From Escherichia coli O127:H6 str. E2348/69 (GTDB lineage Bacteria > Pseudomonadota > Gammaproteobacteria > Enterobacterales > Enterobacteriaceae), in NCBI RefSeq assembly GCF_000026545.1, contig NC_011601.1: 64,000 bases of DNA; one strand, 5' to 3'. Of this stretch, positions 32,360 through 32,619 are shown in pieces. The notes under the pieces were generated by a model that made no database searches, was not told the DNA's origin, and worked only from the letters and a program-made list of their open reading frames with translations. Each line of letters starts with the position of its first letter. Position 1 is the first letter of the stretch. Position numbers and translations under genes: made by a program.

Positions 32360-32482
32360 TTACTCAGCTATGAGGACCTGATCGTCGACTTTGCCATCTG
32401 CATGATGAATCTCCTCAGCAGCAGATGCAGTATTTACCGAAATGAATCCCATGAATAATGCAGTAATTAGTAGTGCTTTCAT
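32360..32482 (-). CDS. possible 40-codon small secreted peptide (MKALLITALFMGFISVNTASA / AEEIHHADGKVDDQVLIAE)
   Basis: Internal Met of ORF 32360..32602 gives a canonical signal peptide plus a 19-aa mature part; weak RBS; could be spurious. Confidence 0.2.
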   Translation of the reverse strand: MKALLITALFMGFISVNTASAAEEIHHADGKVDDQVLIAE

Positions 32483-32619
32483 ATCTGATGCCTGTTTTAA
32501 ACGATATATTTGGAAGTTGACGAATATCGGAAGGAGCTTCCTCCTTCTTGATCTGTAAATATACAGTTCTAAGCTGTCATAAGACTGACTGTCATATGAC
32601 AACGTTGTCAGATTTTTGA

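What the first reader, a model, noticed from the sequence alone, without database searches (positions are those of the whole stretch)
32360..32612. Overlapping perfect palindromes rich in TGTCA upstream of a possible signal-peptide micro-ORF
tgtcatatgaca (32590-32601) and tgacaacgttgtca (32597-32610) overlap, with a direct repeat ctgtcat 15 bp upstream (32574-32580 and 32589-32595). About 100 bp away on the minus strand is a 40-codon frame with a textbook signal peptide (MKALLITALFMGFISVNTASA) and a 19-aa mature part. Together they could be an operator plus a small secreted peptide gene in the island's left flank, or decayed remains of a fimbrial regulatory region.
Basis: seen in the sequence. 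Interest (0 to 1): 0.3.

Follow-up and report, generated by a model that had tools for sequence, protein, structure and literature searches.

The report
Orphaned copper-box promoter with gene stump
One of the two palindromes matches the known binding site of the copper-sensing regulator CusR, and the "signal-peptide micro-ORF" is the first 31 codons of a small stress-protein gene that this promoter drives in other enterobacteria; in this E. coli strain both are leftovers of a decayed mobile island.

Summary
The window is E. coli O127:H6 E2348/69. The finding lies between the F9 fimbrial operon and an ABC-3C defence island.

- **The palindrome.** On the minus strand, 32610..32596 reads TGACAACGTTGTCAT. 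This is a perfect match to the published CusR/PcoE "copper box" core TGACAAnnTTGTCAT.
- **Promoter geometry.** It shares the layout of PcusC, PsilC and PsilE: a third TGTCA-like half-site 11 bp on, and a -10 hexamer 32-33 nt after the box.
- **The micro-ORF.** It is codons 1-31 (signal peptide plus linker) of an 83-aa DUF1471/BhsA-like gene. That gene is intact, with the same box, downstream of the same SDR gene in Raoultella, Buttiauxella, Kluyvera, Citrobacter, Tatumella and others, and on Klebsiella plasmids.
- **The source island.** The plasmid island encodes its own CusR/HprR-family two-component system and carries four such box promoters.
- **Conservation.** The 54-nt promoter block is 91% identical across genera, against 63-69% for the rest of the spacer.
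- **The second palindrome.** TGTCATATGACA is E. coli-specific and not conserved.
- **Decay in E. coli.** The gene is truncated. Most carriers have mutated the box to TAACAA. E2348/69 has also lost most of the SDR and LysR genes.

Verdict: a real but vestigial operator, a new instance of a known kind.

The parts
32596..32610 (-). CusR-type box core, TGACAACGTTGTCAT. The 14-bp palindrome 32597-32610 plus the following T. It overlaps the TGA stop (32610..32608) of the SDR gene remnant.
   Evidence: Perfect match to TGACAAnnTTGTCAT. The literature gives this as the CusR/pcoE box (PMC11195947). K-12 PcusC reads TGACAATTTTGTCAT. Conserved across genera.
32586..32590 (-). Third half-site AGTCA (TGTCA-like), start-to-start 11 bp after the second half-site of the box.
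   Evidence: Same offset (6-10 after the box) holds TGTCA in PcusC, PsilC and PsilE, GGTCA in the orthologous DUF1471 promoters, and CGTCA in two further instances.
32574..32580 (-). Conserved ATGACAG element, a fourth TGACA-like half-site at offset 17-21 after the box.
   Evidence: Invariant columns A46 T47 G48 C50 A51 G52 C53 of alignment A2. nnACAG or nTCAG sits at the same offset in PcusC, PsilC and PsilE.
32558..32563 (-). -10-like hexamer TATATT, 32 nt after the box. The predicted transcription start is near 32551 (inferred). No -35 hexamer is present.
   Evidence: Box-to-hexamer distance is 32 nt here and in all orthologues. It is 33 nt to TAAAGT or TATAAT in PcusC, PsilC and PsilE.
32590..32601 (.). 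E. coli-specific palindrome TGTCATATGACA, created by three substitutions in the spacer between half-sites 2 and 3.
   Evidence: Other genera read TGTCATATAGCG. It extends a possible hairpin in E. coli only.
32529..32541 (-). Small hairpin GGAAGCTCCTTCC in the predicted 5' untranslated region.
   Evidence: Three consensus pairs with some compensatory change (AU:8, GC:5 at one pair), but weak at -2 kcal/mol.
32491..32494 (-). Weakened ribosome-binding site, CAGG where orthologues have GAGG.
   Evidence: Alignment A2 columns 132-135.
32360..32482 (-). 40-codon ORF. Codons 1-31 (32390-32482) are the signal peptide and linker of a DUF1471/BhsA-like gene. Codons 32-40 and the stop come from unrelated DNA beyond a deletion junction at 32389/32390.
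   Evidence: PGAP pseudogene 'BhsA, missing C-terminus'. Homology to intact 83-aa orthologues stops at codon 31. No Pfam or NCBIfam hit for the stub. The orthologue hits PF07338 at residues 32-83, E 3e-19.
32608..32708 (-). Last 33 codons plus stop of an NAD(P)H-binding SDR oxidoreductase gene. The rest was deleted in E2348/69.
   Evidence: Alignment with the intact gene of UPEC132 breaks at 32708/32709. Pfam NAD_binding_10 for the intact protein.
32710..32823 (+). Internal fragment of the helix-turn-helix (HTH) domain of the cassette's LysR regulator.
   Evidence: PGAP pseudogene. Pfam HTH_1 E 6.5e-8. Matches the LysR gene next to the SDR gene in P. vulneris and on the Klebsiella plasmid.
32257..32355 (+). 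Unidentified gene fragment beyond the deletion junction.
   Evidence: PGAP 'hypothetical protein, missing N- and C-terminus'. No family hit. Only E. coli short ORFs found.

Best explanation
**What it is.** The element is the orphaned promoter and operator of a small envelope stress-protein gene, plus that gene's first 31 codons.

**How the intact system works (inferred).**
- The intact system is a mobile detox island, seen whole on a Klebsiella plasmid.
- A CusR/HprR-family response regulator is phosphorylated by its heavy-metal-type sensor kinase.
- The regulator binds the inverted repeat TGACAA-nn-TTGTCAT, and probably weaker TGTCA-like half-sites one helical turn further on.
- The box is centred about 52 bp upstream of the start site. 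From there it activates a promoter that has a good -10 (TATATT) and no -35.
- That promoter drives an 83-aa signal-peptide DUF1471 (BhsA-like) protein.
- The layout is the same as at PcusC, PsilC and PsilE (pcoE is reported to carry the same core box).

**What happened in phylogroup-B2-type E. coli.** The island sits between the F9 fimbrial operon and hipA and has decayed.
- Its own two-component system is gone.
- The DUF1471 gene is cut after codon 31.
- In E2348/69 the SDR and LysR genes are also truncated and an ABC-3C island has been inserted.

**Shown versus inferred.**
- Shown: sequence identity with the known box, shared promoter geometry, cross-genus conservation, truncation of the gene, and intact cusRS in the same genome.
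- Inferred: that CusR and/or HprR still bind this copy, that the promoter still fires, and that the signal for the island system is copper, silver or an oxidant.
For: **Box identity**
- Minus strand 32610..32596 = TGACAACGTTGTCAT, a perfect match to TGACAAnnTTGTCAT.
- PMC11195947 states that E. coli CusR binds AAAATGACAAnnTTGTCATTTT at cusRS/cusCFBA. It also states that CusR controls pcoE, whose promoter has TGACAAnnTTGTCAT.
- The K-12 cusR-cusC spacer reads TGACAATTTTGTCAT. That is the very 15-mer found in the orthologous spacers of other genera.

**Geometry**
- PcusC, PsilC, PsilE and the DUF1471 promoters, this window included, all have a TGTCA-like site at offset 6-10, nnACAG (nTCAG in PcusC) at offset 17-22, and a -10 hexamer at offset 32-33.

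**Conservation**
- The 54-nt block is 0.91 pairwise identical among 13 intact-gene sequences from about ten genera.
- The rest of the spacer is 0.63-0.69, and third codon positions are 0.79.
- The palindrome itself is 0.97, with only the two 'nn' bases varying.

**Gene**
- Intact 83-aa orthologues lie downstream of the same SDR gene.
- They hit PF07338 at E 3e-19. The BhsA model scores 78 bits, below its 90-bit cut-off.
- Homology to the window stops at codon 31. PGAP calls the stub a pseudogene.

**Regulon context**
- The Klebsiella plasmid island carries the following, in order: alpha/beta hydrolase and nitroreductase; AKR, response regulator and sensor kinase; cupin, CMD, flavodoxin and hydrolase; two AKRs; LysR; SDR; DUF1471. 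It has box promoters at four places.
- Its response regulator passes TIGR01387 (298 bits, cut-off 279) and is 54% identical to CusR.
- The E. coli locus is an 80-86% identical, deleted copy of this island.

**Regulator present**
- E2348/69 has intact cusS, cusR and cusCFBA.

**Decay**
- 254 of about 320 E. coli genomes with the site carry TAACAA in the box.
- 65 keep the ancestral perfect box.
- About 540 more genomes have lost the box by deletion.
Against: - No binding or expression data exist for this site.
- The A/T tracts that flank the full 22-bp CusR box (AAAA...TTTT) are not present. The flanks here are AAAAATC on one side and ATGA on the other.
- The -10 spacing is 32 nt rather than 33.
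- The third half-site is AGTCA or GGTCA, not TGTCA.
- The cognate regulator is probably the island's own paralogue (54% identical to CusR), which E2348/69 lacks. Cross-recognition by CusR or HprR is assumed from the identical core.
- In some species the box overlaps the SDR stop codon, so part of its conservation could be coding constraint. In others the stop lies 17-20 nt upstream and the box is still conserved.
- The E. coli sequence also folds well as RNA, z = -4.4.
Confidence: 0.8

Rival explanations
1. The 40-codon frame is a genuine small gene. It would encode a secreted 19-aa peptide (AEEIHHADGKVDDQVLIAE), with the palindromes as its operator.
For: - The ORF is open.
- It has a textbook signal peptide ending in an ASA cleavage motif.
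- It sits behind an apparently intact promoter in E2348/69.
- The frame is kept as 40 codons in many E. coli strains.
Against: - It is the stump of an 83-aa gene. The tail after codon 31 is unrelated DNA.
- No 40-aa homologue exists outside E. coli among 5.8 billion proteins.
- Common alleles put Glu in the hydrophobic core (G12E) or delete 2-11 core residues. Others fuse the stub to different sequences.
- The Shine-Dalgarno sequence is weakened from GAGG to CAGG.
- Most carriers have a mutated or deleted box.
- PGAP calls it a pseudogene.
Confidence: 0.05
2. The palindromes act as an RNA hairpin at the 3' end of the SDR transcript, as a terminator or stabiliser, and not as a protein-binding site.
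For: - The region starts at the SDR stop codon.
- The E. coli minus-strand RNA folds to -21.3 kcal/mol with z = -4.4.
- Half-sites 2 and 4 are mutually complementary in all genera.
Against: - There is no U-tract, and the terminator scan finds nothing on the minus strand.
- On the 15-sequence alignment the helix shows no covariation above shuffles (covariation score reached by 50 of 500 shuffles). Changes in half-site 2 are not compensated, and 5 of 12 pairs depart only by unpaired cells.
- The long stem is E. coli-specific.
- The same box and geometry occur at PcusC, PsilC and PsilE, where no gene ends.
Confidence: 0.06
3. It is a decayed or distal part of the F9 fimbrial regulatory region.
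For: - It lies upstream of the F9 operon and on the same strand.
- No terminator is predicted between it and the operon.
Against: - The mapped F9 promoter fits the window exactly at 32119-32083: -35 TAGTCG, -10 CATAAT, TSS G 251 nt before the ATG. Its H-NS sites reach only to -111 (PMC3966885).
- The element is 470-530 bp further upstream.
- In other genera and on plasmids the same sequence sits in an SDR/LysR/AKR cassette with no fimbrial genes.
Confidence: 0.03
4. The palindromes are chance features of AT-rich intergenic junk.
For: - TGTCA is not enriched in the window.
- The 12-bp palindrome TGTCATATGACA is lineage-specific.
Against: - 0.14 matches to the box pattern are expected by chance, even allowing 1 mismatch.
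- The 14-bp palindrome and 54-nt block are conserved at 0.91-0.97 across genera, while flanking spacer is 0.63-0.69.
- The 15-mer core is identical to the box in the K-12 PcusC spacer, where CusR is reported to bind.
Confidence: 0.02

Closest known systems
CusR box in the cusRS/cusCFBA spacer of E. coli K-12
   Same: - Identical core TGACAAnnTTGTCAT.
- A TGTCA-like half-site 11 bp downstream.
- A -10 hexamer 32-33 nt after the box, with no -35.
- The same regulator family.
   Different: - It lacks the AAAA/TTTT flanks.
- It is not divergent from a regulator gene.
- It drives, or once drove, a DUF1471 gene rather than an efflux pump.
- K-12 ChIP-chip, and SELEX with unphosphorylated CusR, report only the cus site. 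K-12 lacks this locus.
pcoE and silE promoters (plasmid copper/silver resistance)
   Same: - A copper box immediately after the preceding gene's stop. That gene is the sensor kinase silS for silE.
- It drives a small signal-peptide periplasmic protein as a stand-alone unit.
- PsilE has the same geometry.
   Different: - The product family differs: DUF1471 against His/Met-rich metal binders.
- The upstream gene here is an SDR oxidoreductase.
- The copy in this window is truncated.
HprRS (YedWV) regulon
   Same: [quoted passage not shown]
- The island's cargo (AKRs, nitroreductase, AhpD-like CMD, flavodoxin, SDR) looks like oxidant or electrophile defence. This resembles HprR's role, as I recall it, more than metal efflux.
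   Different: - The island regulator falls below the HprR equivalog cut-off, 266 bits against 353.
- The signal it senses is unknown.
bhsA/comC with the ComR repressor (E. coli K-12)
   Same: - The target is a BhsA-like DUF1471 protein with a signal peptide.
- From my own knowledge, BhsA/ComC is copper-inducible.
   Different: - K-12 bhsA lies divergent from the comR repressor gene, which I recall as TetR-type. Its upstream palindrome is different: TGTGATCCAGATCACA.
- The orthologue here scores below the BhsA equivalog cut-off, 78 bits against 90. It is a paralogue with a different control logic.

Membership tests
CusR/PcoR/SilR-type 'copper box' promoter | Core inverted repeat TGACAAnnTTGTCAT | tested here: met
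   Exact match at 32610..32596 on the minus strand. Definition taken from PMC11195947 and the K-12 sequence.
CusR/PcoR/SilR-type 'copper box' promoter | A/T tracts flanking the core (full 22-bp box AAAATGACAAnnTTGTCATTTT) | tested here: not met
   Flanks are AAAAATC on the 5' side and ATGA on the 3' side. Orthologues have CAACCC and ATAG. PsilE and PsilC also lack the 3' T-tract, and pcoE is cited by its core alone. The flanks therefore seem not to be obligatory.
CusR/PcoR/SilR-type 'copper box' promoter | Promoter geometry: further half-site one helical turn downstream, -10 hexamer about 33 nt after the box, no -35 | tested here: met
   AGTCA at offset 6-10 and TATATT at offset 32. PcusC, PsilC and PsilE have TGTCA at 6-10 and TAAAGT or TATAAT at 33.
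CusR/PcoR/SilR-type 'copper box' promoter | A cognate OmpR-family 'heavy metal' response regulator in the same genome or island | tested here: met
   cusR and cusS are intact in E2348/69. The intact island encodes its own TIGR01387 regulator and TIGR01386 kinase. That island system is absent from the window.
CusR/PcoR/SilR-type 'copper box' promoter | Regulator binding and copper/silver (or oxidant) inducibility | not testable with these tools
   Needs EMSA or footprinting and reporter assays.
DUF1471 / YdgH-BhsA-McbA family gene | DUF1471 domain (PF07338) after a signal peptide | tested here: not met
   The window ORF has no Pfam or NCBIfam hit. It ends at the residue before the domain starts in the orthologue (domain = residues 32-83). 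It is a pseudogene fragment, not a member.
Small secreted-peptide (micro-protein) gene | ORF conserved as such, with purifying selection, beyond close strains | tested here: not met
   Only E. coli stubs were found. There are disruptive variants in the signal peptide and fusions.
F9 (Fml/Yde) fimbrial promoter region | Lies within the mapped promoter and H-NS-bound region, and co-occurs with the fimbrial operon | tested here: not met
   The published TSS, -10 and -35 map to 32083-32119. The element co-occurs with the SDR cassette, not with fimbriae.

The most novel reading that the evidence does not exclude
In strains that keep the ancestral perfect box (E2348/69, UPEC132 and about 65 complete genomes), the orphan site may still be a live CusR/HprR-dependent promoter. 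No terminator is predicted before the F9 operon, so it could send copper- or oxidant-induced transcription through the stub ORF into the F9 fimbrial genes. It could also release the 19-aa His-containing peptide, or act as a second chromosomal CusR site that titrates the regulator. That would couple an adhesin to metal or oxidative stress by an accident of genome decay.
Probability: 0.08. Interest if true: 0.6.

Novelty: new member of a known kind. Interest (0 to 1): 0.33.

Why it matters
- **For this window.** It explains an odd-looking sequence as ordinary genome decay. The stretch 32257-32823 is a run of gene fragments left by deletions and an island insertion, not a hidden micro-gene.
- **CusR sites in E. 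coli.** Work in K-12 reports a single chromosomal CusR box. This is a second perfect core box in the chromosome of EPEC and some ExPEC strains.
- **A natural control.** The G-to-A allele (TAACAA) in CFT073-type strains gives a ready comparison for binding and reporter tests.
- **A candidate regulon.** The intact version points to a mobile regulon I found no description of in the paper searches made here. A CusR/HprR-family two-component system would control redox-detox enzymes and a DUF1471 envelope protein through four box promoters.
- **A handle on DUF1471.** That would give a concrete regulatory lead for this poorly understood stress-protein family.

Tried and rejected
**Searches that found nothing useful**
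- Pfam and NCBIfam on the 40-aa ORF, the SDR tail and the plus-strand fragment: no hits. Only the LysR HTH fragment was recognised.
- Protein search with the 40-aa ORF: only E. coli stubs and fusions, no intact homologue. The intact gene was reached through synteny with the SDR gene instead.
- Protein search with the plus-strand fragment at 32251-32373: uninformative.
- Rfam on the window region and on an orthologous locus: nothing real.
- Two paper searches were wasted on short sequence strings and CFT073 locus tags.

**Regulator hypotheses considered from the sequence and dropped**
- LexA box: the spacing is wrong.
- LacI/Cra-type operator: symmetric mismatches.
- ArgR box and CRP/FNR sites: the half-sites do not fit.
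- The neighbouring LysR regulator: its likely T-N11-A site, ATGAAGGGTGTTCAT, lies in the LysR-SDR spacer and is unrelated to this palindrome.
- ComR and the K-12 bhsA promoter: a different palindrome.

**Other tests**
- Sigma-70 scan: no canonical promoter, because the -35 is missing.
- SDR terminator or RNA hairpin: good fold in E. coli but no covariation.
- The small 5'-UTR hairpin has weak support only.

Full report
**Where we are**

The window is E. coli O127:H6 strain E2348/69; the 601 bases around the finding match it at 100%. The RefSeq annotation of the same stretch, given here in window coordinates, shows:
- the F9/Yde chaperone-usher fimbrial operon on the minus strand, with the major subunit at 31269-31832;
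- four pseudogene fragments:
  - 'hypothetical' at 32257-32355 (+);
  - 'BhsA, missing C-terminus' at 32390-32482 (-);
  - an unannotated SDR tail;
  - an HTH/LysR fragment at 32710-32823 (+);
- an ABC-three-component defence system from 33259, then an integrase remnant and hipA.

**Checking the observation**

- The direct repeat is in fact 12 nt with one mismatch.
- The combined 21-mer is unique in the window.
- TGTCA as a word is not over-represented, 142 found against 138 expected. What needs explaining is the local arrangement.

**What the micro-ORF is**

- The 40-aa product hits no Pfam or NCBIfam family. In a 5.8-billion-protein search it finds only E. coli stubs.
- In UPEC132, an intact 260-aa NAD(P)H-binding SDR oxidoreductase ends with its stop codon at window 32610-32608. 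That is inside the palindrome. E2348/69 keeps only its last 33 codons, with a breakpoint at 32708/32709.
- Using that SDR as a synteny anchor in one genome per species, the homology runs from the SDR tail through the spacer and into the ORF. It stops exactly at codon 31.
- This holds in Raoultella, Buttiauxella, Kluyvera, Atlantibacter, Pseudescherichia, Huaxiibacter, Tatumella, Citrobacter amalonaticus, Enterobacter and a second copy in E. whittamii.
- In those genomes the gene is intact. It encodes 83 aa, for example MKALLITTLVMGFISVNAASAAQEINHAVGKEKIGVVSASNAYTLDELSDVLSRKADEQGATSFKILSTTGENRLHGVAEIYK.
- That protein is a DUF1471/YdgH-BhsA family member: PF07338 at E 3e-19 over residues 32-83. 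It is closest to BhsA but below that model's cut-off, 78 bits against 90.
- The window ORF therefore retains only the signal peptide and linker. Its last nine codons and stop come from unrelated DNA beyond a deletion junction at 32389/32390.

Within E. coli the stub drifts freely:
- CFT073-type strains have G12E in the hydrophobic core and G30S;
- other strains have in-frame deletions in the signal peptide;
- others carry fusions to different sequences, including the C-terminus of the F9 major subunit.

The ribosome-binding site is weakened from GAGG to CAGG.

**What the palindromes are**

I aligned the spacer of 13 intact-gene sequences with the E. coli and Serratia pseudogene copies. This shows a 54-nt block directly after the SDR stop.
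- Its pairwise identity is 0.91. The rest of the spacer is 0.63-0.69, and third codon positions of the gene are 0.79.
- The most conserved part (0.97) is TGACAA-nn-TTGTCA, in which only the two central bases vary: TT, TG, CG, CT.
Other genera have TGTCATATAGCG.

The conserved repeat matches a known binding site.
- The K-12 cusR-cusC spacer reads AAAATGACAATTTTGTCATTTTT.
- PMC11195947 states that E. coli CusR binds AAAATGACAAnnTTGTCATTTT there.
- The same paper says CusR also controls plasmid pcoE, whose promoter has TGACAAnnTTGTCAT.
- The window's minus strand, TGACAACGTTGTCAT, is a perfect match. It occurs once in 64 kb, with 0.14 expected even at one mismatch.

**Same promoter architecture**

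I compared PcusC (K-12), PsilC and PsilE (a Salmonella IncHI2 plasmid) with the DUF1471 promoters.

| Feature | PcusC, PsilC, PsilE | DUF1471 promoters, incl. this window |
|---|---|---|
| Half-site at offset 6-10 after the box (11 bp start-to-start from the box's second half-site) | TGTCA | GGTCA (AGTCA in this window) |
| Element at offset 17-22 | nnACAG / nTCAG | GACAG |
| -10 hexamer | TAAAGT or TATAAT at offset 33 | TATATT at offset 32 |
| -35 hexamer | none | none |

- With a start about 7 nt after the hexamer, the box is centred near -52/-53. That is where I recall the CusR site of cusC being placed (from memory, not checked).
- In the window the parts are:
  - box 32610-32596;
  - third half-site 32590-32586;
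  - ATGACAG 32580-32574;
  - -10 hexamer 32563-32558;
  - predicted start about 32551;
  - ATG at 32482.

**The system it came from**

A Klebsiella pneumoniae IncF plasmid carries the whole island. Its gene order is:
- alpha/beta hydrolase and nitroreductase, transcribed leftward;
- AKR, a heavy-metal-type response regulator and a sensor kinase;
- cupin, carboxymuconolactone-decarboxylase-family protein, flavodoxin and hydrolase;
- two AKRs;
- LysR, divergent from the SDR gene;
- SDR, followed by the DUF1471 gene.

Box-type promoters with the same geometry sit at four places:
- facing the hydrolase-nitroreductase genes;
- before the AKR-regulator-kinase operon;
- at the 3' end of the kinase gene, before the cupin operon;
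- before the DUF1471 gene.

Further points on the island:
- The regulator passes the 'heavy metal response regulator' subfamily model (298 bits against 279). It falls below the CusR and HprR equivalog cut-offs and is 54% identical to CusR.
- E. whittamii retains the kinase end plus its box.
- A few E. coli strains carry an intact AKR-AKR-LysR-SDR-box-DUF1471 cassette next to an integrase.
- The B2-type E. coli locus is an 80-86% identical, deleted copy. It lacks the two-component system. E2348/69 retains only about 410 bp of it.

The box is therefore most simply read as an operator of this island's regulon. Its core is indistinguishable from the CusR box. HprR is reported to recognise the same sequence as CusR (PMC8249747).

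**State in E. coli**

- The wider 601-bp region is found, at least in part, in 1027 of 5426 complete genomes.
- E2348/69 has intact cusS, cusR and cusCFBA, with its own canonical box. cusR is present in 5335 of 5426 complete E. coli genomes.
- The box region is present in about 326 genomes:
  - 65 carry the ancestral perfect box (E2348/69, UPEC132);
  - 254 carry TAACAA, a G-to-A change that also turns the SDR stop from TGA into TAA (CFT073, Nissle 1917);
  - 6 are the divergent intact-cassette copies.
- About 540 further genomes, including the O25b:H4-ST131 strain sampled, keep only 32483-32547 and have lost the box.
- This is the pattern expected once the downstream gene is dead.

**Rivals**

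- **Real micro-protein gene.** Contradicted by the truncation, the lack of conservation and the disruptive variants.
- **SDR 3' hairpin.** The E. coli RNA folds well, z = -4.4. The helix shows no covariation above shuffles, and half-site changes are not compensated. There is no U-tract.
- **Fimbrial regulation.**
  - The published F9 promoter fits the window exactly at 32119-32083: -35 TAGTCG, 18-bp spacer, -10 CATAAT, TSS G 251 nt before the ATG.
  - That places it about 470 bp downstream of the predicted box-promoter start (PMC3966885).
  - The element travels with the detox cassette, not with fimbriae.
- **Chance.** Excluded for the 14-bp palindrome. It remains the best reading of the 12-bp one.

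**What is not shown**

- No binding, induction or transcript data exist for this site.
- The full box's A/T flanks are missing.
- The signal sensed by the island's kinase is unknown. Its cargo suggests oxidant or electrophile stress as much as metal.
- Whether CusR or HprR still act on the orphan site in E2348/69 is inference.
- No minus-strand terminator is predicted between the box promoter and the F9 genes. Read-through into F9 cannot be excluded, but I rate it unlikely.

**Verdict**

The element is a vestigial CusR/HprR-type box promoter with the 31-codon stump of its DUF1471 target gene. It is one piece of a row of gene fragments left by the decay of a mobile detox island and the insertion of a defence island. 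It is a new instance of a known kind of operator. Interest in this genome is modest. Interest is somewhat higher as a pointer to a regulon, found in other enterobacteria and on plasmids, that did not turn up in the paper searches made here.

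Noticed in passing
L043 1-12500 and L044 5800-8200 (Klebsiella pneumoniae plasmid NZ_CP124695.1): A complete mobile island. It holds a CusR/HprR-family two-component system and four box-type promoters in front of redox-detox genes (hydrolase-nitroreductase, AKR-RR-HK, cupin-CMD-flavodoxin-hydrolase) and the DUF1471 gene. It looks like a self-contained regulon that did not turn up in my literature searches.
   Followed up: partly
L040 1510-1525 (CFT073), equivalent to window 32596-32611: Most E. coli carriers (254 genomes) have a single G-to-A change. 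It turns the box half-site TGACAA into TAACAA and, at the same time, the SDR stop TGA into TAA. This is a natural box-knockout allele.
   Followed up: yes
window 32083-32119 (minus strand): The published F9 fimbrial promoter of CFT073 (-35 TAGTCG, -10 CATAAT, TSS G, 251 nt leader) maps exactly here in E2348/69. It points the same way as the box promoter, about 470 bp downstream, with no predicted terminator in between.
   Followed up: partly
window 33259-36663 (+) and onward to about 38700: An ABC-three-component (ABC-3C) defence system: a 366-aa protein, middle component 2 and an AAA ATPase. It is followed by a small reverse-transcriptase-domain gene, an integrase remnant and hipA. Strain A25 has a different ABC-3C variant at the same spot.
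   Followed up: no
L004 292-340 (Escherichia whittamii): A box (TGACAAAATTGTCAG) overlapping the last codons of a heavy-metal sensor kinase gene, followed by the same GTCAGCCT element and a TAGAAT -10, upstream of the cupin operon. It is 27 of 36 identical to the DUF1471 promoter block.
   Followed up: partly
window 32529-32541: A small hairpin (GGAAGCTCCTTCC) in the predicted 5' leader. Its equivalent in other genera changes sequence but keeps pairing (one pair AU in 8 and GC in 5 sequences). Support is weak.
   Followed up: partly
L036 2484-2501 (E. coli K-12 bhsA upstream region): The K-12 bhsA promoter region contains a perfect palindrome TGTGATCCAGATCACA with CRP-like half-sites. It is unrelated in sequence to the box studied here.
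   Followed up: no
proteins P0009, P0010, P0011, P0013 (E. coli contigs): In some strains the 25-30-codon stub is fused by further deletions to other sequences. One case is the C-terminus of the F9 major subunit (seen on 13 contigs). This shows ongoing deletion at this locus.
   Followed up: no
window 32257-32355 (+): A gene fragment of unknown origin lies beyond the deletion junction. It has no family hit and no homologues outside E. coli short ORFs.
   Followed up: partly
L034 and L039: E. whittamii has two copies of the SDR cassette, one with and one without the DUF1471 gene. Five or six E. coli genomes carry an intact cassette next to a frameshifted integrase. This suggests repeated horizontal acquisition.
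   Followed up: partly
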